A DNA stretch of 64,000 nt, from the sequence record NC_101837.1, one strand, 5' to 3'. Shown piece by piece: positions 403 to 56,194 of the stretch. This stretch comes from a phage. The stretch's first letter is position 1; the number at the start of each line of letters is the position of its first letter. A program made the translations under genes and the position numbers. The notes under the pieces are model-generated. The model ran no database searches. It saw only the letters and a program-made list of their open reading frames with translations, and was not told the DNA's origin.

Positions 403-1338
403 ATGACAAATGAGGAACATATAATGAAGTATTTTAATGCAGACGACCTAGTTGACAAAGGTCTTGTAACCAGTAGGTATTACCCAGATCTCGGGTTAAA
501 GATCTATAAATATGCTAGAAAAGTATTTTACAACAATTTATGGCATTTGTCCCCTCGTTTACTGGAGTGCCGAGGCATTGTTGTAGGTAATGAAGGAAAT
601 GTTGTGGCATGGCCCTTCACAAAAGTGTTTAACTTGGGAGAAAACTCCACCAACCTGCCTGACAATAAGCTTGTGACTGCGGTAGAGAAAAAGAACGGAT
701 TCCTTGGTGTGGTATCATCTCATAAAGGTGACCTATTGTTCTCAACAACCGGGTCTCTTGATTCTCCATATTGTAACCTTGCAAAGGAAACCATCCAAGA
801 GCAATGTGGTAATTTAGATCTTATCAAGAAGGTTATGGGCAATGAAAACATGACATTCATGTTTGAAATTTGTCACCCTTCAGATCCGCATATTGTTCAA
901 GAAGACCATGGCGCATATTTGATAGGTTGCAGATATAATGATTCTGGAATAATGCTACCAGAAGCAGCTTTAGATGGGATTGCCAAATACCTTGGTGCAA
1001 AACGTCCTCACACTGTGCGTGAAATCCCGTTCAGCTATGCAAAAGAATTAGCCGCAGAAACAAGGGGCGAAGGGTATATGATCCGTAAGCCTTACTACCC
1101 TTATGACCTGCAGCTGAAGATCAAGTCTCCATACTACCTGGCACGGAAGGCCGTAATGAGGGGTAAAGCTTGGAAGATTTGGGATGATGATATCTTTAAA
1201 CGTGTTGACGAAGAGTTTTACGGCATGGTAAACTTCATTCGTAACAATTACACAGAAGATGTGTGGAACTGCCTCCTGGAGCAGGAACGCCGTGAGATAC
1301 TTGACTGCTATTTCCACAACGAGGACTATATGCAATGA
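403..1338 (+). CDS. RNA ligase-like nucleotidyltransferase (Rnl2-like)
   Basis: Ligase-family motifs in order: KKNG (I-like), EGYMIRKP (IV), LKIKSP (V); divergent from Pnk-like gene. Confidence 0.5.
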   Translation: MTNEEHIMKYFNADDLVDKGLVTSRYYPDLGLKIYKYARKVFYNNLWHLSPRLLECRGIVVGNEGNVVAWPFTKVFNLGENSTNLPDNKLVTAVEKKNGFLGVVSSHKGDLLFSTTGSLDSPYCNLAKETIQEQCGNLDLIKKVMGNENMTFMFEICHPSDPHIVQEDHGAYLIGCRYNDSGIMLPEAALDGIAKYLGAKRPHTVREIPFSYAKELAAETRGEGYMIRKPYYPYDLQLKIKSPYYLARKAVMRGKAWKIWDDDIFKRVDEEFYGMVNFIRNNYTEDVWNCLLEQERREILDCYFHNEDYMQ

Positions 1339-1685
1339 AGAAGTTGATTGTGTGGCTGGATGACTTGAGAGATCCGTCAAATTACGGGCTCCAAGACGCT
1401 GTTTGGCTAAAGAATTCCTCCGAGTTTATAGATTTTATTAACGATAATAGAAAGCTCTACAGACGCGTTTCTGAGTGGCATATGGACAACGACCTTGGAG
1501 AGGTATTCGAAGGGTACGATTGCCTATCTATGTTGGAGGAAAAGTTTGTATTTGGTAAGCCTCCTGTAGTTGACAACGTGAAGATTTTCGTGCATACTTC
1601 TAACCCATCAGCGGCTCGTAAATTCATGCTTGCGGCTGACTCGTTTAAAAAGTTTGGAATAGAGATTAAACAAAACATCTACTGA
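1335..1685 (+). CDS. hypothetical protein (116 aa)
   Basis: ATGA overlap with upstream stop; tiled ORF. Confidence 0.45.
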   Translation: MKKLIVWLDDLRDPSNYGLQDAVWLKNSSEFIDFINDNRKLYRRVSEWHMDNDLGEVFEGYDCLSMLEEKFVFGKPPVVDNVKIFVHTSNPSAARKFMLAADSFKKFGIEIKQNIY

Positions 1686-1693
1686 GGACACTT

Positions 1694-2455
1694 ATGCGAC
1701 GACTGATTGTTATCTCCGGTGCTGGTTTGAGTGCTGAATCTGGTATTCCCACTTTCCGATCTGGTAGCACTGCAATGTGGGAGAATTTCAGCATCGATGA
1801 GGTGTGCAACATCCACACCTTTGCCAAGAACTACTATAAGGTGCATGACTTTTACAATGCACGTCGTGTAGCTTTAGGCAGTGTTGAGCCTAACCTTGCA
1901 CATCTTCGGATCGCTGAGTGGTATTCCCGCTGGTCTGGTCGTGTGATCAACCTTACCACCAATGTAGATGATTTGCTGGAGCGTGCTGGTGTAAAACATG
2001 AAGATATTTTACATGTCCACGGGTATTTGCCAGAAATAGTCTATGAGGACGATGAAGGAAGTGACGTCATTAAGGACATTGGATACTCTGAGGTAGACGC
2101 AGGAAAGTATACCTGGGTTAAGCCTAATGTGGTGTTCTTCGGAGAAGTAGCTCCGAAGTATACAGACATGTATGACCTGTTGACTTCTCTTACGAGCAAT
2201 GATATGGTTATCCTTGTAGGGTGCTCCAACACAGTTATCAATTTTAACTGGGAGCTATTCCCTGCCTGCAATAAGGGAACAAAACTGCTGATCGTTAACA
2301 AATACGACTCACAGCAGCTAGGGGAGAATGGCATTTCACGTAGTGATATTTACCAATATGAGGATCGCGGCATCCCAGTTTGGTTTAACGGGGCGGTTGA
2401 TGCTTTCTCTGATAAAACATTCATTGAGACCGTAGAAAACTTTATGGAATTTTAA
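1694..2455 (+). CDS. Sir2-family NAD-dependent deacylase (CobB-like)
   Basis: GAGLSAESGIPTFR Rossmann motif, FYNARR, TTNVDDLLERAG, catalytic HVHG; zinc-ribbon cysteines not evident. Confidence 0.8.
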   Translation: MRRLIVISGAGLSAESGIPTFRSGSTAMWENFSIDEVCNIHTFAKNYYKVHDFYNARRVALGSVEPNLAHLRIAEWYSRWSGRVINLTTNVDDLLERAGVKHEDILHVHGYLPEIVYEDDEGSDVIKDIGYSEVDAGKYTWVKPNVVFFGEVAPKYTDMYDLLTSLTSNDMVILVGCSNTVINFNWELFPACNKGTKLLIVNKYDSQQLGENGISRSDIYQYEDRGIPVWFNGAVDAFSDKTFIETVENFMEF

Positions 2456-2468
2456 AAGGAGACCTTTA

Positions 2469-3182
2469 ATGCTGAATACCAAATTAATTGACAACCTGGA
2501 AAAACTGTCCCAACCTGAAAACTACCTTTGGTCTGCCAACTGGGTGGAGAACTGGAACCGTGTGGCAGCTAAAGTGAAAAAATCATACACACCGTTCGAA
2601 TTACAGCTTAGCTTCATTGAGGAAGAGTTCAATGAAGTTTTGGAAGAGCTGGAGAAAGGTGATGGTGGAGATCACCTGCTAAAAGAGGCCTGCGATCTTC
2701 ACGTTGTCACAAGTTATGCCACTTATCTTGTTAATGACAATCACGAAAAGTGGTCAAGCCTGTTTGATAATCCACAGGGTCTTAAGTTCAAGATCGGTGA
2801 GTTCTATGATACCCTGATCGCTGCGAAAAACACACCTAAGCAAAGAGCGTCAGCTTACCGCTTAGCGGAGTTGTCAACAGCTTTGCTGTTCCAGCTTCGC
2901 GGCGATGTGTGCGGGATGATGCGTAAGGTTCTCAAATCGAATGACAGTAAGTTTGCACGGGTCAACCATCTACGGTATTCACACGGTGCCGGTGCAGATA
3001 TGCCTGCTGAACAACTCATCGAGTTGGAGATTAAAGATCTTGAGCGACGCTTTGATGGTAGATATGAAGGTTTTGTTGCTAAGGAAGAGTTCTACAACGG
3101 TAATAAAGTTATCATATTCCTTGACAGTAAAGGTAAGATCATGAAGCCTTCGAGCTTCAAGGATGTAACAGAGTATATTTAA
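2469..3182 (+). CDS. hypothetical protein, possibly MazG-like NTP pyrophosphohydrolase
   Basis: Acidic EEEFNEVLEELEKGDGGDHLLKEA segment resembles MazG metal-binding helix; weak. Confidence 0.4.
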   Translation: MLNTKLIDNLEKLSQPENYLWSANWVENWNRVAAKVKKSYTPFELQLSFIEEEFNEVLEELEKGDGGDHLLKEACDLHVVTSYATYLVNDNHEKWSSLFDNPQGLKFKIGEFYDTLIAAKNTPKQRASAYRLAELSTALLFQLRGDVCGMMRKVLKSNDSKFARVNHLRYSHGAGADMPAEQLIELEIKDLERRFDGRYEGFVAKEEFYNGNKVIIFLDSKGKIMKPSSFKDVTEYI

Positions 3183-19718: not shown

Positions 19719-19997
19719 ATGAGCTGCGAAAAATCTTTTTTCATCATCATTTACGGTAAGGATAACTGCCCACATTGTGTCAGAGCAAAAGAATTTGCAA
19801 TCAGCAAAGGTCTGCCTTTTGTATATAAGACACTTGGCGAGGGCTACACAAAAGAAGAGCTTATTGAGAAGTGTAGTCCAATCGTCCCCAGAACGTTGCC
19901 GCAGATCTTCTTAGAAAGCGATCTTGACAGTGTCCATATAGGCGGTGCAGACGATTTCATCTCTTTTGTTAAGAATGGTTTTGGAGAGAAAAAGTGA
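19719..19997 (+). CDS. glutaredoxin / NrdH-like redoxin
   Basis: CPHC active site near N-terminus, 92 aa, between nrdB and nrdD. Confidence 0.7.
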   Translation: MSCEKSFFIIIYGKDNCPHCVRAKEFAISKGLPFVYKTLGEGYTKEELIEKCSPIVPRTLPQIFLESDLDSVHIGGADDFISFVKNGFGEKK

Positions 19998-20854
19998 AAG
20001 TTGTAAAACGGGACGGTAGAGAAGAGTTTTATAACGGAATTAAGGTGATCAAGGCGGCAGAGTCCGCCTTACTTGAGTCTGGACATACTGAAGAAGAAGC
20101 TTACCGGATAGCTTGTGCAGTTAATGAAGTTGTTGCTAACAATCTACCAACCGACCAGTGCACGATCTCTGTAAAAAATATCCATATCCTTGTTGAAGAT
20201 GCTCTTATGGATATGGGTTTAAAATGTGCAGCCAGAGAATACATCCAGTATAGACAGACAAGAGATAATAACAGAGAGGCAGGTGGAAAACTGCTTGCAG
20301 ATATTAGTGGCTTCTTGGATCGAACTTGTGATGAATTTACAAAAGAAAACGCAAATAAGCCTACTAATCATGTACACACTCATCGCGACCTGCTTGCAGG
20401 CATCCTTAGCAAACACCTTGCATCAACACAGATCCTGCCAGACCGTGTTTCAGAAGAGCACAATAAAGGCTTCATCCATGTGCATGATCTTGACTACTTG
20501 ATCAGTCCGTTAACAAACTGTTGTTTGGTAAATTATCCAGATATGTTGGAAAACGGATTCAACATTGGCAACGCCCATGTCAGTAAGCCGAAGTCAATAG
20601 GGGTTGCAACAACAATCCTTAGTCAAATCTCTAGCGCGGTAGCTAGTGCTCAATATGGTGGTCAGACTATGAGCCATATTGATCATTATCTGGCACAGTA
20701 TGCTGAAGCAACCTATGAGAAGAACCTTAAATTTTGCCAGGAACATTGGTTGCCGGATGCTGAAACTGTTGCAATGCAAATGACAGATAAAGACGTGTTT
20801 GACAGCATGCAGACGTTGCTTTATCAGATCAACACACTAACCTCGGTAAACGGT
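19994..20854 (+). CDS. nrdD: anaerobic ribonucleotide reductase NrdD, exon 1
   Basis: N-terminal ATP cone (VVKRDGREEFYNGIKV); frame ends at TAA 20855-20857 inside putative intron. Confidence 0.75.
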
Positions 20855-21105
20855 TAACAAACTGGCCGTTTTAAAACTCTGCTAACCTCAGTATGAGGGG
20901 TCAGCTGATCGCTGGCTAACGGGGAACGCTAAGGCGAAAGCTATGCCAATCCCGTGACTAGCTTCACAAGGAGTGAGGCGGTTGTAACGACTAACCTTTT
21001 GGTGTAGGGATTATGGAAGATTCCGAAACGCAGGGGTCTGATTAAGAATCACACGGTGTGATTTCAGGCAAGAGATAGTCTGGCCTTGTGGAAACATAAG
21101 GGTGG
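20855..21105 (+). ncRNA. putative ORF-less group I intron interrupting nrdD
   Basis: About 250 nt between nrdD frames; GTGACTAGC (P7 5' strand-like) and AAGAGATAGTCTGG (P7 3' strand-like); boundaries inferred from U before 5' splice site and G before exon 2, +/- a few nt. Confidence 0.55.
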
Positions 21106-22374
21106 GGACCGCAAACCCCTTTTATCACATTAAGTTTAGGTTTGGACACTTCGGTCTTTGGTAGAATGATTACCAAAAATTACTTGAAAGTCCACAAAAT
21201 GGGTCTTGGTGAAGAACGTATCACACCTGTGTTCCCTAAAGTGCTGTTCTTCCTGGAAGAGGGTGTCAACATGAACCCTGGGGATCCTAACTATGATTTG
21301 AAACGATTAGCTCTGGAATGCTGTGCAGAACGTATCTATCCTGACTTCGTATCTGTACCACTAAATAGAAAAGTGACAGGCTCGACAGATGGCAAAGTAA
21401 CTAGCATGGGTTGCAGGAGTTTTCTTAGCAAATACAATGACTTGGAAACAGGCGAGGAGAAATACCTTGGCAGATTTAACTTAGGCGTTGTTAGCCTTAA
21501 CCTGCCAATGATTGCGGCAAAAGCTAAGACGGAAGGTGTTGATTTCTTTGCAGTTCTTGACGAATACTTGGATCTTGCATATGAGGCTCACCTTGTAAGG
21601 GTTAACCGTCTAAAAGGAACAAAGGCAGGGCAGAACCCCATCATGTGGTGTGAAGGCGCTCTTGCTCGCCTGGATCCTGAAGAGAGTATTGATAAACTCT
21701 TCTATGACGGGTACGCTTCCATCAGTATTGGGTATATTGGTGTGTATGAAACCTGTCAGATTTTGGGCAGAGAGGGTGACAAGGCTTTAGCTCTTGGAAT
21801 CCTTCAGCACATGAGAGATGCTTGTGAGCGATACAAGAAGGAAAGTAGACTAGCATTTAGCTTGTACGGCACTCCTTCTGAGAGTCTATGCTATAAAGCT
21901 GCAACCTGTCTGGATCGTGAATATCCGGAAGTGTTGAAGCACGAGCATGAATATCTCACCAACAGTTTCCATCAGCCAGTGTGGATAAATAGCTCTCCTT
22001 TTGATAAGTGGGAGTATGAGGAAGGTTTTGCTATGATCTCCTCTGGTGGCAACATTGGATACGTAGAGACACCTAACCTGAAAAACAACCTGGATGCTTT
22101 AGAGGCTCTTGTTGACTTCGGGTATAAACATATTATGTATTTTGGTATTAACCAACCTGTGGATAAATGTCTCAAGTGTGGTTTCTCTGGTGAGTTCAGT
22201 GCAACAGCTAAAGGGTTCTGCTGCCCTGCGTGCGGATGCCACGATGAACAATATATCTCAGTGATCCGAAGAGTGTCTGGATATCTTTCCAGTCCTAACT
22301 CCCGTCCTTACAATAAAGGTAAGCAAGCGGAAGTTATCGAGCGAGTTAAGCACTACGGAAGTTGTGGTTGCTGA
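21106..22374 (+). CDS. nrdD: anaerobic ribonucleotide reductase NrdD, exon 2
   Basis: Exon-2 frame opens at 21100 (GWGPQTPF...) upstream of track start 21142; C-terminal glycyl-radical motif RVSGYL. Confidence 0.7.
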   Translation, partial: GPQTPFITLSLGLDTSVFGRMITKNYLKVHKMGLGEERITPVFPKVLFFLEEGVNMNPGDPNYDLKRLALECCAERIYPDFVSVPLNRKVTGSTDGKVTSMGCRSFLSKYNDLETGEEKYLGRFNLGVVSLNLPMIAAKAKTEGVDFFAVLDEYLDLAYEAHLVRVNRLKGTKAGQNPIMWCEGALARLDPEESIDKLFYDGYASISIGYIGVYETCQILGREGDKALALGILQHMRDACERYKKESRLAFSLYGTPSESLCYKAATCLDREYPEVLKHEHEYLTNSFHQPVWINSSPFDKWEYEEGFAMISSGGNIGYVETPNLKNNLDALEALVDFGYKHIMYFGINQPVDKCLKCGFSGEFSATAKGFCCPACGCHDEQYISVIRRVSGYLSSPNSRPYNKGKQAEVIERVKHYGSCGC

Positions 22375-33322: not shown

Positions 33323-33640
33323 ATGCAAATTGAAATCACTGGCAACGTAGAAATCACTGAAGGTATGGTGTCTTTCATTTCCCACAAAATGTCTAAGCTG
33401 GAGCGTTTGCATCCCTCTGCCAACTATGCACGTGTGAGTGTAAAAGTTGAAAATGATCACCAGGAAGTTATGGCGTTCATTTTTGACAATTCTGGAAAAG
33501 AAGTTATTGCCAAAGCTAAAGGCAGTGATGCTTACGAGGCAACTGACCGTATGGTAGATGTTGCAGCACGTCAACTGGCTAAATGCGGTGGAAAGAGAGG
33601 TAAGGGGAAAGGCAAAGTAAAGATTGACTTTAGAGAATGA
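33323..33640 (+). CDS. ribosome hibernation promoting factor / RaiA (YfiA) homolog
   Basis: MQIEITGNVEITEGM...KLERL...VSVKVEN...AKAKGSDAYEATDRMVDVAARQL is collinear with bacterial HPF/RaiA. Confidence 0.7.
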   Translation: MQIEITGNVEITEGMVSFISHKMSKLERLHPSANYARVSVKVENDHQEVMAFIFDNSGKEVIAKAKGSDAYEATDRMVDVAARQLAKCGGKRGKGKGKVKIDFRE

Positions 33641-38795: not shown

Positions 38796-38917
38796 AGCAC
38801 CGAGCCCACACAGGTTCCTCATGCTAAAGCATGGCCTGAAGAGGCAAACGTGCATAATTCCAGCGTATTGGAACGCATAAAACCCTGTTCACACTCTCAT
38901 TTTCCAGAGGAGATTTC

Positions 38918-39133
38918 ATGAAGATAGAAATATTTGGTGGGGCTGACAACACTCGTGGCCTGATTTACCTTGAATTCGATGAATCATACCTGCCAGAGGT
39001 GTTAAATATAGACTCTGTTGCTGAGGCTTTGGGAGTAAACCCTAAAGAACTCCACTCTTGTGCTGAGATCGATGGTTGGGAAGAGACCATGAACATTGAT
39101 TTCAGTGAAGTAGAGGATGAACCGCTGGACTGA
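38918..39133 (+). CDS. hypothetical acidic protein (71 aa)
   Basis: AGAGGAG RBS. Confidence 0.4.
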   Translation: MKIEIFGGADNTRGLIYLEFDESYLPEVLNIDSVAEALGVNPKELHSCAEIDGWEETMNIDFSEVEDEPLD

Positions 39134-39260
39134 CACACAATTAGCTGCCCGGCTAAAGTGCTGGAAGCACCTATAACACATCTTTCAACTAAATTTCCTA
39201 CCACCACAATCACTTACCTCCCACACATGACTGTTTGCTTGTTTAGTGAGCAGTCATGCC

Positions 39261-39288
39261 TTGACATTCTTGCCTATCTTGATAAAAT
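39261..39288 (+). promoter_or_regulatory. sigma70-like promoter with no ORF downstream
   Basis: TTGACA, 16 bp, TAAAAT; downstream 250 nt is purine-rich and non-coding. Confidence 0.45.
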
Positions 39289-40663
39289 TAAGTTCTTCTC
39301 TTTTCTTTTACCGAGTAATTCGGGTTTTCTGTTCTCTTCGGTTTGAAGGGGTATGGAGATACACCTGAGTGAACAGGGTGAACAACCGAACCTTTGGCTA
39401 TGGCATTAGCATGGCGAAGCGGACGGGTGACGAAAGAGGGGCCGGAGGACACCAGTCACTGCCATATGATATATGGGTGATAACCTGAAGAGTCTGAATA
39501 AGTGTTTAAGTACCAGTCAGAGGAAAAGGTGAATGGTAGCCGAAGGGGGATGGGGGGTTTCTTGTATCTTTAATTTGTATATTATGTATACACTTGTAAA
39601 CCAATCTCATCTGAATCTGTTTACCACACAAAGCGGATAGAGACAAATATCACCTATTAAACTTGAATTATTTATAGAAAATACCACAACACCAATTAAG
39701 TCTTTGATTTTAAACACAAATCCTACAGATATTCAACCTCCATATTTAACATACTCGTAACATATTCCATACTCTACCTGTCTGATCAATTTACCCAACT
39801 ACATCCCCATATTTTCCCTGTCTGTACTACCCCATCCCCGCCGGGAGTCCCGTCATATCTGGCTTTCCAGCAAATATCACACCCACAAATATCATTGCCT
39901 GAAGAGGGTTTCATCCCATAATACATGCCTTACATGAAGAGCGCTTCATACACCACGTAAATTTTTTAATTGACCTCCCCGCCGCCGGAGAGGTTGGCTT
40001 TTCCCCACACAGACCTGAAGAGTCAGCCAGAAATATCTGAACAGGTCCAGTTCTGCCTTGTCATGAGCCGTAGCGACTGGAGTGCTGCCAGGCGGACGGA
40101 ATGGGAATACTTCTCATTCTTATAATAATTCTCAAATATCGAGGCAGTGAGGCAAATTAATAGGTGAGGCCGTTCACACAGTGGCACAACATTTGCAATC
40201 TATTTTGTGGGGGTGAATGAGAATACCTATCATTGTGAGAACTGTTATCATTACGGGCAATTTAACATAATACCCATTATGCGCACCACTGGCGATCCAT
40301 ACAGGGATTGATAACATGAGTTACAGTTTACGCATATAACAATCATATTTCTTACTATTTGTGTGGGATATAGTTAGCAGCCGATAGATTAGATATTGAC
40401 CTGTGGACTTCCAACCGTCTAGACGTCTAAACGCCCACACAACAAGGATTATACATACATTACTGAATGTAAACAGGGCCGCAAAAATGCTACCATACCA
40501 GTTTGTAAATTTTTCATGCAGCACTTGACAAAGAGAGGAAAAACTTGTCTGACATGCTGGGCATACTTCACACCTTAAACATACTCAACACTGGATACAA
40601 TAACAATTGTTACTATTGCATGCCTCACTGTTCACGTATAGACTATTTGCTCAAAAATGATAA

Positions 40664-40955
40664 GCCATGCCATTCGTTTGCATGATAACAATAACGATCA
40701 ACAACAATAAAGACTGAAATGATAACGTTGTTGATTTGACTGACTAACAATTAACAGGCTAATAATCTATGACATAATATAAAAGCAGGGCAACTATTAG
40801 CAGATCTATAGTTGCCTTGCTTGTTATGTCATGATTAACTAAATACAAGGCAACTATGATCTGATTAATAGTTTGCAGACAAACTATCACGGGGGTGATG
40901 GTTACTGCTTTTATATTATGTCGCGACTCCGTCGCGCCATGCCATTCGTTTGCAT
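40664..40955. repeat. composite repeat: 20-bp direct repeats flanking 18-bp inverted repeats and iteron-like motifs
   Basis: GCCATGCCATTCGTTTGCAT at about 40664 and 40936; GACATAATATAAAAGCAG (40771) and its reverse complement (40905); AAGGCAACTAT-like motif in both orientations between them. Confidence 0.5.
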
Positions 40956-41616
40956 AGTTGCCTTATTGTTACAGATAAAATAATTGTATTGTTAATTATT
41001 TCTTATCTTTCTATTAGTCATCTAATGATTCCAGTTAGTATAGTAACGTACAGTAAACATTAGACGACTAAAGATTTCTCTGATTATGATAACTTGCCGT
41101 GACAATTTCAGACTGTTTACGAAAAATGTTGACACCTGAGCTGATTTATGTTATGCAATTTAAACGAATAATTATTTTATGCAGGTATTGACTATTCTGT
41201 TATCCTATGGTCGGAATAAATACTTAGCAGGCTATAGAATGGTGAGCGTACGTAAATTCTGAGATCTGTCGGCTATAGTTATACTCGATTTTTCACGTAG
41301 AACACGCTTTTTGGTTTGTGTAAGTGTATGACTTATAAAGATTTTTAGTTGTTGACAAGATATTGAAGATGTGCATCAGGTTAAATTTTGTGCAATAGCT
41401 GCATTACGTGCAATTTTGGAAGGAAAACGGGTAAAAATAGCACCGCTACCACACAATGAAAGGTTATGCAATAGTTATTTTACATGTATATTTGTACAGT
41501 GTGTGGGATTGATGGCTCGTCAATTATTCCACTTGCCAGGTAGGGCCGTTTATGGTAGGGAGGAAGAGCAGACAAAAAGAAAGGGACCTAAGCCCCTTGA
41601 TAATTCAGTTAAAAAA

Positions 41617-54285: not shown

Positions 54286-54479
54286 GGGAACACTTTGAGG
54301 ATTGAATCTTTACTTGGCTAGGAAGTTCTTTTTCCGTATGGTAGGTAGAAATACCCTCCTGCAGATTCGAATATAGCTCCTTCGGTTGTATCTACCACAG
54401 CAAGAATTAAGATTTTAGTCTCCACAGTGCTCTCCTCTCTTAGTTGTCGTGGAAACTATATCACCTCAGAAGATGGTCG

Positions 54480-54938
54480 TCAACACTTTTTGTACTCCAC
54501 CACGACAATATCTATGTCGAAAGTGGCAAGGTTAATAACGTCCTCTACGTGTTCCCACTTCAAACCGCCTATGCCGCACCCGATCTTAGGGATGTAGAAT
54601 GGTAAAGTCGATCCGCTGAATACTTCATTGACTAGCTCAAAGCCTTTCAGGATTGAGAAATACTCAGCATTAGGTCCTGGGTAGAACTGGGTATATAGAT
54701 TGATTCCGTAGACAATACCTATCGGAGATAAGTGCTCCCATCGGGAGAACGCACCCAGTTTACTTAGGCAACCGTATCTAGTCTCTTTGTCGGCTGACAG
54801 TGCTTGAGGAAACTCACGGGCAATCTGTTTTGCTATACCCTTGCCCATTGTGTGGAAGCAGTTACAACCGTGGATCAGGTGACCAGCACCGCTCTTAAAA
54901 AGGGAGATTAAATCTCCCTCTACAGTATCAATAATCAC
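54480..54938 (-). CDS. macrodomain protein, TARG1/OARD1/DarG-like ADP-ribose hydrolase
   Basis: GDLISLF...HLIHGCNCFHTMGKGIAKQIAREFP and IPKIGCGIGGLKWEHVEDVI are collinear with TARG1 motifs (HCIS.DCRMGAGIA; PRIGCGLDRLQWENV); GTG 54938 with GAGGAG RBS. Confidence 0.6.
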   Translation of the reverse strand: MIIDTVEGDLISLFKSGAGHLIHGCNCFHTMGKGIAKQIAREFPQALSADKETRYGCLSKLGAFSRWEHLSPIGIVYGINLYTQFYPGPNAEYFSILKGFELVNEVFSGSTLPFYIPKIGCGIGGLKWEHVEDVINLATFDIDIVVVEYKKC

Positions 54939-55353
54939 GGTAAGCCAGCTCCTCTTCCGCAATTTCAAAAAACTCAGTCCAGCACTGTGGCATATTGGAG
55001 TTACCGAAGTGGCTTTCATAGTAAAGGTTCTTACCGCTAGGAAGGTAGAAATCTGTTACCTCATAAAATCCACAATCGTCGCACTCACCTTCTTCAAACT
55101 TGGCCTTAACCTTAATACCGAGGAAGGTGAAAAGTTTATGGACATCTTCAGTTTCGAACTCCCAGGGAATGTTGTTTTCCGCATCGGTGTAGAACTGGAT
55201 CAGCAGACCATTGTCCAGTTTACCAAAATACTCTGTGAAGTAACTTCCTTCCCAGAAATCTTTATGACAAATAATATCCATGCGTTTGCCCATAATAATG
55301 GTGTGAGCGTTTTGGGCATCGTCACGAATCAGTTTTGGCATTTCATAGATCAT
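54928..55353 (-). CDS. hypothetical protein (141 aa)
   Basis: Tiled ORF. Confidence 0.45.
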   Translation of the reverse strand: MIYEMPKLIRDDAQNAHTIIMGKRMDIICHKDFWEGSYFTEYFGKLDNGLLIQFYTDAENNIPWEFETEDVHKLFTFLGIKVKAKFEEGECDDCGFYEVTDFYLPSGKNLYYESHFGNSNMPQCWTEFFEIAEEELAYRDY

Positions 55354-55421: not shown

Positions 55422-55619
55422 TTACACAGGAATTGCTTCAAACAGGCCGTTATCTATACCGTCCTTCAGATAGAGATTATATTCTATGTCGGTATCTGTA
55501 TAAAGGGCAGCATCCAGCATTCTATCTGTGAGTCCATCCATTGGGTGGAGAAACCACCACCCACGCCAGTCAAAGTAACAGCCTGGTGCATCTTCTCTTA
55601 CACGGATTCGATAAATCAT
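55422..55619 (-). CDS. hypothetical protein (65 aa)
   Basis: Tiled ORF. Confidence 0.4.
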   Translation of the reverse strand: MIYRIRVREDAPGCYFDWRGWWFLHPMDGLTDRMLDAALYTDTDIEYNLYLKDGIDNGLFEAIPV

Positions 55620-55715
55620 GGGCAGTGGCCTCCTGTTAGTTATACATCCCAGTTTTCTTCGTTCATCGCGTCCTCCCGTTATATGAAGTTATAATTGCAC
55701 ACCTTTCAACCTGTG

Positions 55716-56132
55716 TCAACAGAAAACTTCAACAAATTCTTCCACAGTTTTAATGTCGTGGGAAAAAGGTTTACGGCTATAACGGGCAATAGCACTATCA
55801 ACCACCGCCCGGTACTCTAAATCTTCAGAATATTTCATGAAGCATTGTAGCGTCTCTGGACAGATAGCTAAATAGCTCCACCACCCCTCTTCAGATTGGT
55901 AGTCAAATCCCATACTCTCCAACCATGAAGCATATACGCCTGCACCCTCAAGCCAGTGAGTATTTTCATCCAGAAACTTGTTAATAGACATGTGAGCTTC
56001 TAAGCATTTATCCAGCTCTTTTCCGTTAACCAGCCACGCACTGACCGTGGCGCATCCAAGGTCTACAGATTGAGTTGACAGGTTGTATTGGTCATAGTTC
56101 TCAGGTTTAACAATGATATCTTCTAATGTCAT
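55716..56132 (-). CDS. hypothetical protein (138 aa)
   Basis: Tiled ORF. Confidence 0.45.
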   Translation of the reverse strand: MTLEDIIVKPENYDQYNLSTQSVDLGCATVSAWLVNGKELDKCLEAHMSINKFLDENTHWLEGAGVYASWLESMGFDYQSEEGWWSYLAICPETLQCFMKYSEDLEYRAVVDSAIARYSRKPFSHDIKTVEEFVEVFC

Positions 56133-56194
56133 TTTTCAGATCTCCTTATACAAAAATGCCCCACCCTTTCGGGCAGGGCTATGTTAGTTATGTG

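What the first reader, a model, noticed from the sequence alone, without database searches (positions are those of the whole stretch)
54480..54938. Phage-encoded TARG1/OARD1/DarG-type macrodomain
The N-terminal (HLIHGCNCFHTMGKGIAKQIAREFP) and C-terminal (PKIGCGIGGLKWEHV) motifs are collinear with the catalytic and ADP-ribose-binding motifs of TARG1/OARD1-type macrodomains, the clade that includes the DarG antitoxin which reverses DNA ADP-ribosylation. In a virulent phage this is a plausible counter-defense enzyme against ADP-ribosylating systems, or an O-acyl-ADP-ribose deacylase partnering the sirtuin at 1694-2455.
Basis: partly seen in the sequence, partly recalled or inferred. Interest (0 to 1): 0.7.

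Follow-up and report, generated by a model that had tools for sequence, protein, structure and literature searches.

The report
Phage DarG-like macrodomain, AdfM homolog
This is a real, intact gene for a small ADP-ribose-removing enzyme (a macrodomain) in an rV5-like E. coli phage; it is a clear relative of a phage T4 gene recently shown to protect T4 from a bacterial defence that tags viral DNA with ADP-ribose, so it is a sound but largely expected find.

Summary
Window 54938..54480 (minus strand, GTG start) encodes a 152-aa stand-alone macrodomain in an rV5-like Vequintavirus. Sequence, profile and structure searches all place it in the TARG1/DarG/SCO6735 ("ALC1-like") class. It is 39% identical over its full length (E 3e-41) to T4 Tk.4, named AdfM in a 2025 preprint because a tk.4 knockout makes T4 sensitive to DarTG2. 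Homologs occur in 2,771 of 50,697 phage records, and several relatives' records already call it a macro domain protein.

One refinement: the catalytic lysine of TARG1 and DarG (K84/K80) and TARG1's Asp125 are absent. The family instead has an invariant Asn26/Gln84 pair, as in Streptomyces SCO6735, which cleaves thymidine-linked ADP-ribose from DNA through Gln85.

The most likely function is lysine-independent removal of DarT2-type ADP-ribose from phage DNA. This is inferred, not tested for this phage. Supporting points:
- Some family members are fused to NADAR, the guanine-ADP-ribose eraser.
- DarTG2-sensitive T5 lacks this macrodomain.

The sirtuin-partner idea is not supported. The sirtuin lies 52 kb away in an RNA-repair cluster. 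T5 has the sirtuin without this macrodomain; no sirtuin is annotated in T4 to my knowledge.

Verdict: new member of a known kind, modest interest.

The parts
54480..54938 (-). Macrodomain gene: 152 codons plus stop, GTG start. Ortholog of T4 tk.4 (adfM) and of bas50_0093 in phage DrSchubert.
   Evidence: ORF and translation. Pfam Macro. PHROG 335, E 2e-59. 39% identity, E 3e-41, to T4 Tk.4. AF2 model pLDDT 97.1. Foldseek top hits TARG1, Poa1p, DarG. DrSchubert annotation.
54949..54954 (-). Shine-Dalgarno-like GAGGAG, 10 nt upstream of the GTG start. It lies inside the 3' end of the upstream 141-aa ORF, so translational coupling is possible.
   Evidence: Read directly from the sequence. The upstream ORF 55353..54928 overlaps the GTG by 11 nt.
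54861..54863 (-). Codon of Asn26 in the loop-1 motif H-G-C-N-C. Equivalent to DarG Asn22, PhiKZ AdfM Asn23 and SCO6735 Asn27.
   Evidence: Invariant in alignment A1 and present in every aligned family member. Aligned to the reference enzymes. Mutation of the equivalent Asn impairs SCO6735 and DarG (PMC9411070) and PhiKZ AdfM (PMC13309987).
54687..54689 (-). Codon of Gln84 in the motif N-L-Y-T-Q. It occupies the position of the catalytic Lys of DarG (K80) and TARG1 (K84), and equals Gln85 of SCO6735.
   Evidence: Profile and MAFFT alignments. Gln in 232 of 232 aligned full-length family members. SCO6735 Q85A is inactive (PMC9411070).
54564..54590 (-). Glycine-rich phosphate-binding loop P117-K-I-G-C-G-I-G-G125. 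Gly124 sits where TARG1 has catalytic Asp125.
   Evidence: Near-invariant P117, I119, G120, G122 and G125. Alignment to TARG1 IGCGLDRL.
55691..55719 (-). Promoter-like site TTGACA-17-AATTAT with a TG extension. It could drive a small transcription unit of the 65-aa ORF (55619..55422), the 141-aa ORF (55353..54928) and the macrodomain gene. Consensus match only.
   Evidence: Promoter and terminator scan. A terminator-like hairpin at 56179..56158 lies just upstream.

Best explanation
The gene encodes a stand-alone, catalytically competent ADP-ribosyl hydrolase of the ALC1/TARG1-like macrodomain class. It is the Vequintavirus ortholog of T4 Tk.4 (AdfM).

Proposed function. During infection it most likely acts as an orphan 'antitoxin-like' enzyme. 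It would remove the ADP-ribose that DarT2-type toxins attach to thymidine N3 in single-stranded phage DNA. That restores replication and lets the phage grow on DarTG2-carrying E. coli.

Proposed chemistry. The enzyme would be lysine-independent, as proposed for SCO6735:
- Asn26 locks the invariant Gln84.
- Gln84 positions the distal ribose and the transition state.
- The Gly-rich loop (residues 117-125) holds the diphosphate.
- A backbone-held water does the acid/base work.

What is shown here: the ORF, the fold, the class, orthology to Tk.4 and conservation of the Asn/Gln/Gly-loop signature.

What is inferred: the substrate (T-linked ADPr-DNA), the mechanism and the anti-DarTG2 phenotype in this phage.
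For: 1. Fold and class.
- Pfam Macro is above its cutoff.
- The AF2 model has pLDDT 97.1.
- Foldseek top hits are TARG1 (TM 0.78-0.85), Poa1p, Taq and Mtb DarG, BT1257 and SCO6735.
- Profile against PDB: DarG 8e-17, BT1257 9e-17, SCO6735 4e-16, TARG1 2e-15.

2. The only defence-related model hit is DarG (PADLOC 2.9e-13; NCBIfam 2.4e-12).

3. Orthology. It is 39% identical over its full length to T4 Tk.4, E 3e-41. In a transposon screen tk.4 was the single significant T4 gene hit on a DarTG2 host, and a clean knockout sensitised T4 to DarTG2 (preprint 10.1101/2025.11.20.689424).

4. Active site. Asn26 and Gln84 are invariant across 232 aligned family members and align with SCO6735 Asn27 and Gln85.
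- SCO6735 cleaves T-linked ADPr-DNA and rescues cells from DarT.
- Its Q85A mutant is dead and its N27S mutant nearly so (PMC9411070).
- Every ALC1-class hydrolase tested for it (TARG1, DarG, SCO6735) removes T- or U-linked ADPr.

5. Domain fusions. Three family representatives carrying the same signature are fused to NADAR, the guanine-ADPr DNA eraser that counters DarT1 (P0119, P0170, P0200).

6. A separate, Lys-type phage macrodomain, PhiKZ gp104, removes DarT2-made ADPr from DNA in vitro and counters DarTG2. This shows the strategy exists (PMC13309987).

7. T5, which DarTG2 restricts strongly (PMC11825919), has no detectable homolog (best E 0.17).
Against: - No experiment exists for this protein or for any Vequintavirus macrodomain. 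No paper was found that tests Vequintavirinae against DarTG2.
- The T4 evidence is genetic only and comes from a preprint. No biochemistry on Tk.4 was found.
- The catalytic Lys of DarG and TARG1 is missing. The SCO6735 features credited with DNA handling are also missing: the 5-6-residue longer mobile loop with Lys89 and Lys94, and Lys34, which is Ala in most family members.
- The protein is acidic (pI 5.9) whereas SCO6735, DarG and TARG1 are basic. PhiKZ AdfM is also acidic yet active on DNA, so this point is weak.
- The gene's neighbours are lineage-specific unknowns that give no functional hint.
- The T4/T5 correlation rests on two phages.
- Macrodomains are often promiscuous, so other ADPr substrates are not excluded.
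Confidence: 0.65

Rival explanations
1. The enzyme processes small ADP-ribose metabolites rather than DNA adducts. It would act as an ADP-ribose-1''-phosphate phosphatase like yeast Poa1p. Its job would be to clear the ADPr>p / ADPr-1''-P by-products expected from the phage's own NAD-dependent RNA-repair module (RNA ligase, cREC, SIR2 at 403-2455) or from host KptA.
For: - Poa1p is among the best structural matches (TM 0.69-0.75, E about 1e-9; profile E 8e-14).
- PHROG 335 and the RefSeq T4 record call the family 'phosphatase / A1pp motif'.
- The window encodes RNA ligase, cREC and SIR2. Iyer et al. predict this cluster removes RNA 2'-phosphates with NAD+ and generates ADPr>P (PMC9503650).
- Some Vibrio phage homologs sit next to a ribose-phosphate pyrophosphokinase-like gene (H74, H78).
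Against: - The macrodomain is 52 kb from that cluster, on the other strand. Iyer et al. note that these sirtuins are not coupled to a Macro gene.
- T5 has the sirtuin but lacks this macrodomain.
- The macrodomain family is found mainly in T4-like phages, the sirtuin mainly in T5-like phages.
- The T4 ortholog has a specific DarTG2 phenotype.
- 'Phosphatase' is a name inherited from Poa1p, not a tested activity for any phage member.
Confidence: 0.12
2. The enzyme is a broader or different eraser of ADP-ribosylation. It could reverse RNA base ADP-ribosylation (uracil-linked, or CmdT-type adenine-linked on mRNA). It could also reverse protein ADP-ribosylation, whether made by host defences or by phage ADP-ribosyltransferases. 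Thymidine-ADPr on DNA would then be only one substrate, or not the main one.
For: - SCO6735 and TARG1 also act on protein-linked ADPr and on uracil-linked ADPr in RNA.
- Macrodomains are versatile, and 41% of myoviruses carry one (PMC9503650).
- The family is very large: 1,378 clusters at 50% identity with E<=1e-30. That is wider than one might expect for a counter to a single defence system.
Against: - CmdT-type adenine ADP-ribosylation is described as irreversible so far.
- SCO6735 was inactive on 2'-OH RNA ADPr and, in one assay, on 5'-phosphate-linked ADPr.
- No ADP-ribosyltransferase family appeared among the Pfam hits of 111 window ORFs (only 25 of 32 families were listed).
- The only phenotype known for an ortholog is DarTG2-specific.
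Confidence: 0.15
3. One reading: an O-acetyl/O-acyl-ADP-ribose deacylase that works with the phage sirtuin at 1694-2455.
For: TARG1/OARD1 can deacylate O-acyl-ADP-ribose (established knowledge; the PDB entries are named 'O-acetyl-ADP-ribose deacetylase 1'). A SIR2 gene is present in the same genome.
Against: - There is no linkage: the genes are 52 kb apart, on opposite strands, in different gene blocks.
- The sirtuin belongs to an RNA-repair neighbourhood and is predicted to act as an ADP-ribosyltransferase on RNA 2'-phosphate, not as a deacetylase.
- Phyletic patterns differ. The sirtuin is in 1,023 records, mostly T5-like; the macrodomain is in 2,771 records, mostly T4-like and others. T5 has the sirtuin but no macrodomain.
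- The TARG1 catalytic dyad is absent.
Confidence: 0.04
4. A non-catalytic ADP-ribose binder that sequesters an ADPr-derived immune signal, or binds and blocks DarT, rather than hydrolysing anything.
For: - The canonical catalytic Lys is missing.
- Some macrodomains are readers only (PMC9503650).
- Other anti-DarT factors (AdfA, AdfB) work by binding the toxin.
Against: - The residues that SCO6735 needs for catalysis (Asn, Gln, loop Gly) are invariant across the family, which argues for an enzyme.
- Gln-type SCO6735 is a more efficient hydrolase than DarG.
- The protein lacks DarG's C-terminal DarT-binding domain. It matches only positions 3-141 of the 338-position DarG model.
Confidence: 0.04

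Closest known systems
T4 Tk.4 = AdfM (anti-DarT factor Macrodomain; preprint 10.1101/2025.11.20.689424)
   Same: - Same size: 152 vs 155 aa, both stand-alone macrodomains.
- 39% identity over the full length, E 3e-41.
- Same PHROG, 335.
- Identical signature: HGCNCFHTMG ... NLYTQ ... P-x-IG-x-GIG.
- Both hit only DarG in PADLOC.
- Both are acidic, pI 5.9.
   Different: - Different phage family (Vequintavirus vs Tequatrovirus).
- Different neighbours: T4 tk.4 lies between vs and tk.3; here the neighbours are lineage-specific unknown ORFs.
- 61% of residues differ.
- The DarTG2 phenotype is known only for T4.
Streptomyces coelicolor SCO6735 (PDB 5E3B) and Bacteroides BT1257 (2FG1/2AFC): Gln-type ALC1-like macrodomains
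   Same: - Same class and fold.
- Same Asn/Gln pair at the active site (N26/Q84 vs N27/Q85) and the same conserved loop glycines.
- SCO6735 is a proven T-linked ADPr-DNA hydrolase that neutralises DarT without a catalytic lysine.
   Different: - Only 24-26% identity.
- The phage family lacks the 5-6-residue longer mobile loop with Lys89 and Lys94.
- It has Gly24 where SCO6735 has Val25.
- It usually has Ala where SCO6735 has Lys34.
- It is acidic rather than strongly basic.
- SCO6735 is a cellular, DNA-damage-induced gene.
DarG antitoxin macrodomain of DarTG2 (T. aquaticus 5M31/5M3E, M. tuberculosis 5M3I)
   Same: - Best PDB sequence match.
- Same fold.
- Conserved Asn (DarG N22).
- Similarly short loop after the catalytic position.
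- Presumably the same substrate.
   Different: - Catalytic Lys80 is replaced by Gln84.
- No C-terminal DarT-binding domain (matches positions 3-141 of 338; 46.8 bits against a 250-bit cutoff).
- No adjacent darT gene.
PhiKZ gp104 = AdfM of chimalliviruses (PMC13309987)
   Same: Both are phage-encoded stand-alone ALC1-class macrodomains. PhiKZ gp104 is shown to remove DarT2-made ADPr from DNA and to counter DarTG2. Both are acidic.
   Different: - Only 20% identity.
- PhiKZ gp104 is Lys-type (N23/K78) like DarG, so it is a separate lineage that happens to carry the same name.
- It is imported into the phage nucleus.
Human TARG1/OARD1 (4J5R and related entries)
   Same: Best structural match (TM 0.78-0.85). 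Same length and topology. The C-terminal motif P-[KR]-IGCG-x-x-x-L-x-W is conserved.
   Different: - Lys84 is Gln and Asp125 is Gly, so the covalent Lys/Asp mechanism cannot operate.
- TARG1 has Ser where this protein has Asn26.
Yeast Poa1p (6LFQ and related entries), ADP-ribose-1''-phosphate phosphatase
   Same: High structural and profile similarity. It is the source of the 'phosphatase' and 'Poa1p-like' names given to this family in GenBank and PHROGs.
   Different: Poa1p is longer (about 180 aa, with insertions). Its substrate comes from tRNA splicing. No phosphatase activity has been shown for any phage member. I did not obtain a residue-level comparison of Poa1p's catalytic residues.

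Membership tests
Macrodomain superfamily (Pfam PF01661) | Sequence match above Pfam's gathering score, and the three-layer alpha/beta/alpha macro fold | tested here: met
   28 bits against a cutoff of 22. AF2 model pLDDT 97.1. 166 PDB matches at E<=0.001; those listed are macrodomains or designed proteins.
ALC1-like / TARG1-like macrodomain class (TARG1, DarG, SCO6735, BT1257, Poa1p) | Closest sequence and structural relatives are members of this class rather than the MacroD, PARG or viral nsP3 types | tested here: met
   All top sequence hits and the top 19 Foldseek hits are TARG1, Poa1p, DarG, DarTG or BT1257. MacroD-type and viral macrodomains rank lower.
TARG1/OARD1 | Catalytic dyad Lys84 and Asp125 | tested here: not met
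   Gln84 aligns with Lys84 and Gly124 with Asp125. Gln is invariant in the family.
DarG antitoxin (DarTG2) | Catalytic Lys80 in the macrodomain | tested here: not met
   YTQ aligns with DarG PTK.
DarG antitoxin (DarTG2) | Conserved Asn (Taq DarG N22) in loop 1 | tested here: met
   Asn26 is invariant and aligns with the Asn of DarG and PhiKZ AdfM.
DarG antitoxin (DarTG2) | C-terminal DarT-binding domain and an adjacent darT toxin gene | tested here: not met
   The protein is 152 aa. It matches only positions 3-141 of the 338-position NCBIfam DarG model, at 46.8 bits against a 250-bit cutoff. The neighbours have no DarT or other ART hit.
SCO6735-type (Gln-type) ALC1-like hydrolases | Gln at the position of the TARG1/DarG lysine, held by the loop-1 Asn, plus conserved loop glycine(s) | tested here: met
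   N26, Q84, G120 and G122 align with SCO6735 N27, Q85 and the IGCG glycines. They are conserved in more than 98% of 236 family members.
SCO6735-type (Gln-type) ALC1-like hydrolases | Extended mobile loop with Lys89 and Lys94, Lys34, and an electropositive DNA groove | tested here: not met
   The loop after Gln is 5-6 residues shorter. Position 33 is Ala, Ser or Gly in 222 of 236 members. pI is 5.9 against 9.7.
AdfM, T4 Tk.4 type | Full-length homology to T4 Tk.4 with the same signature motifs | tested here: met
   39% identity, E 3e-41, 150 of 152 residues aligned. HGCNCFHTMG and NLYTQF are identical.
AdfM, T4 Tk.4 type | Needed for phage growth on DarTG2 hosts; removes T-linked ADP-ribose from DNA | not testable with these tools
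   Needs phage genetics and enzymology. Only the T4 knockout phenotype is published, and no Vequintavirus data were found.
AdfM, PhiKZ gp104 type | DarG-like active site N23/K78 | tested here: not met
   20% identity. PhiKZ has PTK where this protein has YTQ.
Poa1p-like ADP-ribose-1''-phosphate phosphatase | Phosphatase activity on ADPr-1''-P, and Poa1p's own catalytic residues | not tested
   Only overall similarity was measured. No residue-level alignment to Poa1p over the central region was obtained.

The most novel reading that the evidence does not exclude
The Tk.4/rV5-type 'AdfM' family is not a captured DarG antitoxin. It is an independent, very large, virus-centred lineage of Gln-type macrodomains that erases nucleic-acid base ADP-ribosylation by a lysine-independent, SCO6735-like mechanism. 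'AdfM' as currently used would then cover two mechanistically different enzymes: the Lys-type of PhiKZ and the Gln-type of T4 and rV5. The natural fusions to NADAR would mark dual thymine-plus-guanine erasers. In rV5-like phages the same enzyme might also clear ADPr-phosphate by-products of the Sir2/cREC RNA-repair module.
Probability: 0.4. Interest if true: 0.45.

Novelty: new member of a known kind. Interest (0 to 1): 0.3.

Why it matters
The practical value is a ready hypothesis. rV5-like phages are broad-host-range candidates for therapy and for O157 biocontrol. If the hypothesis holds, they should be intrinsically resistant to DarTG2 because of this one gene, and a single knockout can test that.

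The conceptual value is smaller but real. The T4/rV5 family carries an invariant Gln where DarG, TARG1 and the PhiKZ AdfM carry the catalytic Lys. The published description of Tk.4 simply as a "DarG homolog" therefore hides a different catalytic solution, the one described for SCO6735. The Macro-NADAR fusions independently tie this family to reversal of nucleic-acid ADP-ribosylation.

None of this changes the general picture. Macrodomains are among the commonest accessory domains of large phages, and their anti-DarT role is already in the literature.

Tried and rejected
- Sirtuin partnership: rejected, for the reasons given under the rival explanations.
- Membership of DarG or TARG1 proper: rejected because the defining catalytic residues and DarG's second domain are absent.
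- Neighbourhood clues: Pfam and PHROG scans of nine to ten flanking ORFs found only lineage-specific unknowns, an endonuclease VII-like gene and a phage zinc-binding domain. These give no functional link.
- Other ADP-ribose genes in the window: a Pfam scan of 111 ORFs listed no NADAR, ART, Nudix or second macrodomain. Only 25 of 32 matched families were displayed. A profile search of the six-frame translation found only this one macrodomain.
I did not repeat it, so I cannot say whether Gln-type members occur next to darT in bacteria.
- Context of the Macro-NADAR fusions: two of the contigs examined were too short. The 13-17 kb contigs carrying P0119 are ORFan-rich and virus-like, with no DarT.
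- Phylogenetic placement among DarG, SCO6735 and TARG1: pairwise identities are all 24-27% (20% for PhiKZ gp104) and profile E-values are nearly equal. Only signature residues, not a tree, separate the subtypes.
- Net charge as an argument against DNA binding: dropped, because the biochemically active PhiKZ AdfM is even more acidic.
- Literature: no biochemical study of Tk.4 and no test of Vequintavirinae on DarTG2 were found.
- Rfam scan of the whole window: no hits. tRNA scan: none.
Full report
**What is there**

The ORF list and translation show a minus-strand gene from a GTG at 54938 to a stop at 54480, 152 aa. A GAGGAG box sits 10 nt upstream of the GTG. The GTG overlaps the end of the preceding 141-aa ORF by 11 nt. 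The long ATG-initiated reading (55019) is just read-through into that upstream gene. The internal ATG used in one GenBank record cuts off the first conserved strand. Homology to T4 Tk.4 starts at residue 1, which fixes the start.

The window itself is an rV5-like Vequintavirus. The 4 kb around the gene and the first 12 kb of the window are 95-99% identical to phages such as DrSchubert (Bas50), rV5_ev147 and FV3. In DrSchubert the gene is bas50_0093, annotated "hypothetical protein". It lies about 6 kb downstream of the DNA polymerase gene in a long co-directional block of small genes. Other records already label it "macro domain protein", "Poa1p-like family protein" or "phosphatase".

**Fold and class**

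- Pfam Macro is matched above its gathering score.
- PHROG 335 is matched at 2e-59.
- Against solved structures the single sequence finds the M. tuberculosis DarG macrodomain first, then Poa1p, BT1257, SCO6735, Taq DarG and TARG1.
- A 62-sequence family profile finds the same set at E 1e-14 to 1e-17.
- An AlphaFold2 model built on that alignment is very confident: pLDDT 97.1, pTM 0.91.
- Foldseek against the PDB returns TARG1 (TM 0.78-0.85), Poa1p, DarG, BT1257 and SCO6735 ahead of MacroD-type and viral macrodomains.
- In the defence-system library the only hit is DarG.
- NCBIfam's DarG model is matched only over its N-terminal 141 of 338 positions and far below its cutoff.

The protein is a macrodomain alone, not a DarG.

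**Relation to known phage genes**

A tblastn search finds homologs in 2,771 of 50,697 phage records, including T4-like phages where the gene lies next to vs and is called tk.4. I fetched T4 tk.4. The two proteins are 39% identical over their full length, E 3e-41.

A 2025 preprint reports that tk.4 was the single significant T4 gene hit in a transposon screen on a DarTG2 host. A clean deletion sensitised T4 to DarTG2, and the authors named the gene adfM. An earlier paper had noted that T4 lacking adfA and adfN stays DarTG2-resistant and predicted a further factor.

A 2026 paper independently gave the name AdfM to PhiKZ gp104. That paper showed gp104 removes DarT2-made ADP-ribose from DNA in vitro and counters DarTG2.

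**The active site is not that of TARG1 or DarG**

In the profile alignments and in a MAFFT alignment of reference enzymes, three differences stand out:
- The catalytic lysine of DarG (K80), TARG1 (K84) and PhiKZ gp104 (K78) aligns with Gln84 of this protein and with the same Gln of T4 Tk.4 (motif N-L-Y-T-Q).
- TARG1's Asp125 aligns with Gly124.
- The loop-1 Asn (DarG N22, PhiKZ N23) is present as Asn26.

The same Asn/Gln pair occurs in SCO6735 (N27/Q85) and BT1257.

I aligned 236 family members to the family HMM: 94 from the word-indexed search and 142 further cluster representatives from the exhaustive search. Asn26 is present in all aligned sequences and Gln84 in 232 of 232 full-length ones. 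The apparent Lys and Arg exceptions were the PhiKZ reference and a truncated fragment. The family signature is H-G-[CA]-N-C ... N-x-Y-T-Q ... P-x-I-G-[CA]-G-[IL]-[GA]-G.

The SCO6735 paper shows several relevant things:
- This Gln-type enzyme cleaves thymidine-linked ADP-ribose from DNA more efficiently than DarG or TARG1.
- It rescues cells from DarT.
- It is killed by Q85A and nearly killed by N27S.
- It probably works through a backbone-held water rather than a lysine.

Later work shows TARG1, DarG and SCO6735 all also remove uracil-linked ADPr.

The phage family differs from SCO6735 in lacking its longer, lysine-bearing mobile loop, in usually lacking the equivalent of Lys34, and in being acidic. 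PhiKZ AdfM is acidic too and works on DNA, so charge is not informative.

**Independent support for a role in reversing nucleic-acid ADP-ribosylation**

- Among the longer family representatives, three are fusions of a Gln-type macrodomain to a NADAR domain, and one to DUF4326. NADAR is the guanine-specific ADPr-DNA eraser that phages use against DarTG1. One such fusion sits on ORFan-rich, virus-like contigs without a DarT gene.
- T5 is strongly restricted by DarTG2. It has no detectable homolog in a six-frame profile search of its whole genome (best E 0.17). The window and T4 controls score 8e-63 and 4e-50.

These points are supportive, not decisive.

**The sirtuin idea**

ORF 1694-2455 is a SIR2 protein (3e-27). 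It lies in a cluster with a T4-type RNA ligase (403-1338) and a cREC cyclic-phosphate-processing domain (1335-1685). Iyer et al. described exactly this phage V5 neighbourhood. They predicted an NAD-dependent RNA-repair system in which the sirtuin acts like KptA, and they noted that the sirtuin is not coupled to a Macro gene.

Several observations argue against an obligate sirtuin partner:
- The macrodomain is 52 kb away on the other strand.
- Sirtuin homologs occur in 1,023 records, mainly T5-like and Vequintavirinae.
- The macrodomain family is found mainly in T4-like and other myoviruses.
- T5 has the sirtuin but not the macrodomain.

I therefore reject that reading. A looser version remains a minor rival. 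In it, the macrodomain clears ADPr-1''-phosphate made by that pathway, in keeping with the Poa1p similarity and the inherited "phosphatase" label.

**Local context**

The flanking ORFs are small, lineage-specific families of unknown function, plus an endonuclease VII-like gene and a phage zinc-binding protein. Consensus scans place a terminator-like hairpin at 56179..56158 and a promoter-like site at 55719..55691. The 65-aa ORF, the 141-aa ORF and the macrodomain gene may therefore form one small unit. This is only a pattern match.

**Verdict**

- It is corrected on catalytic residues (Gln-type, SCO6735-like).
- It is corrected on the sirtuin alternative (unsupported).
- The function in this phage is inferred from an ortholog's genetics and from conserved active-site residues. 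It has not been tested.
- Macrodomains are present in about 40% of medium-sized phages, the family is huge and the anti-DarT role is published. This is a new member of a known kind, of modest interest.

Noticed in passing
window 54318-54425 (minus strand); nonsense codon at 54318-54320: The small ORF just downstream of the macrodomain gene is cut to 35 aa by a single GAG->TAG change. The 56-aa version is intact in phages DrSchubert (bas50_0094) and 241Ecol014PP, and the rest of the 200-nt stretch is identical. It matches PHROG 15268 over positions 1-35 of 56.
   Followed up: partly
window about 38800-41600, especially 40660-40970: A roughly 2.8-kb stretch has no ORF of 90 aa or more, and gene direction switches there from + to -. 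The part at 40500-41500 is AT-rich (33-35% GC). It holds a cluster of direct and inverted copies of GGCAACTAT/ATAGTTGCC and a perfect 20-nt direct repeat 272 nt apart. It probably corresponds to the ~2-kb intergenic region of Bas54 that tolerated no transposon insertions. It may be a replication origin or a divergent promoter hub. No tRNA or Rfam hits.
   Followed up: partly
window 403-3182: RNA ligase (403-1338), cREC cyclic-phosphate-processing domain (1335-1685), SIR2 (1694-2455) and a gene annotated as nucleotide pyrophosphohydrolase in phage FV3 (2469-3182) form a cluster. This is the predicted, experimentally untested NAD-dependent RNA-repair module of phage V5 described by Iyer et al. 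2022.
   Followed up: partly
window 19994-20857 and 21142-22374: The anaerobic ribonucleotide reductase NrdD is encoded in two separate ORFs with a gap of about 285 nt; both match Pfam NRDD. In phage FV3 the same gap holds an HNH homing endonuclease gene. No group I intron or other Rfam family was detected at gathering threshold.
   Followed up: partly
window 33323-33640 (+): A ribosome hibernation / RaiA-like protein gene. One window ORF matches Pfam Ribosomal_S30AE at 1.3e-12. The colinear FV3 gene is annotated as ribosome-associated translation inhibitor RaiA. The window coordinates are assigned by colinearity only.
   Followed up: no
related records: 16-20 GenBank records named 'Campylobacter phage' (for example MG065662, host C. 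jejuni) are about 94% identical to this E. coli rV5-like sequence over kilobases. This suggests mislabelled or contaminant genomes.
   Followed up: no
record HE978309.1, Enterobacteria phage GEC-3S (hit H24): A 163-kb phage carries a macrodomain 69.5% identical to the rV5-type protein. Typical T4-like phages are 38-46% identical. This suggests exchange of the gene between phage lineages.
   Followed up: no
loci L006 (6268-7686), L007 and L005; proteins P0119, P0170, P0200, P0195: Metagenomic, virus-like contigs encode natural fusions of this Gln-type macrodomain with NADAR and/or DUF4326. These are candidate dual erasers of thymine- and guanine-linked ADP-ribose. DUF4326 has no known function.
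   Followed up: partly
records NC_042094.1 (Vibrio phage Ceto) and MW398869.1 (Vibrio phage VPG01); hits H74, H78: In these Vibrio phages the macrodomain homolog lies next to a ribose-phosphate pyrophosphokinase-like gene. This could link some family members to ADP-ribose/NAD salvage pathways.
   Followed up: no
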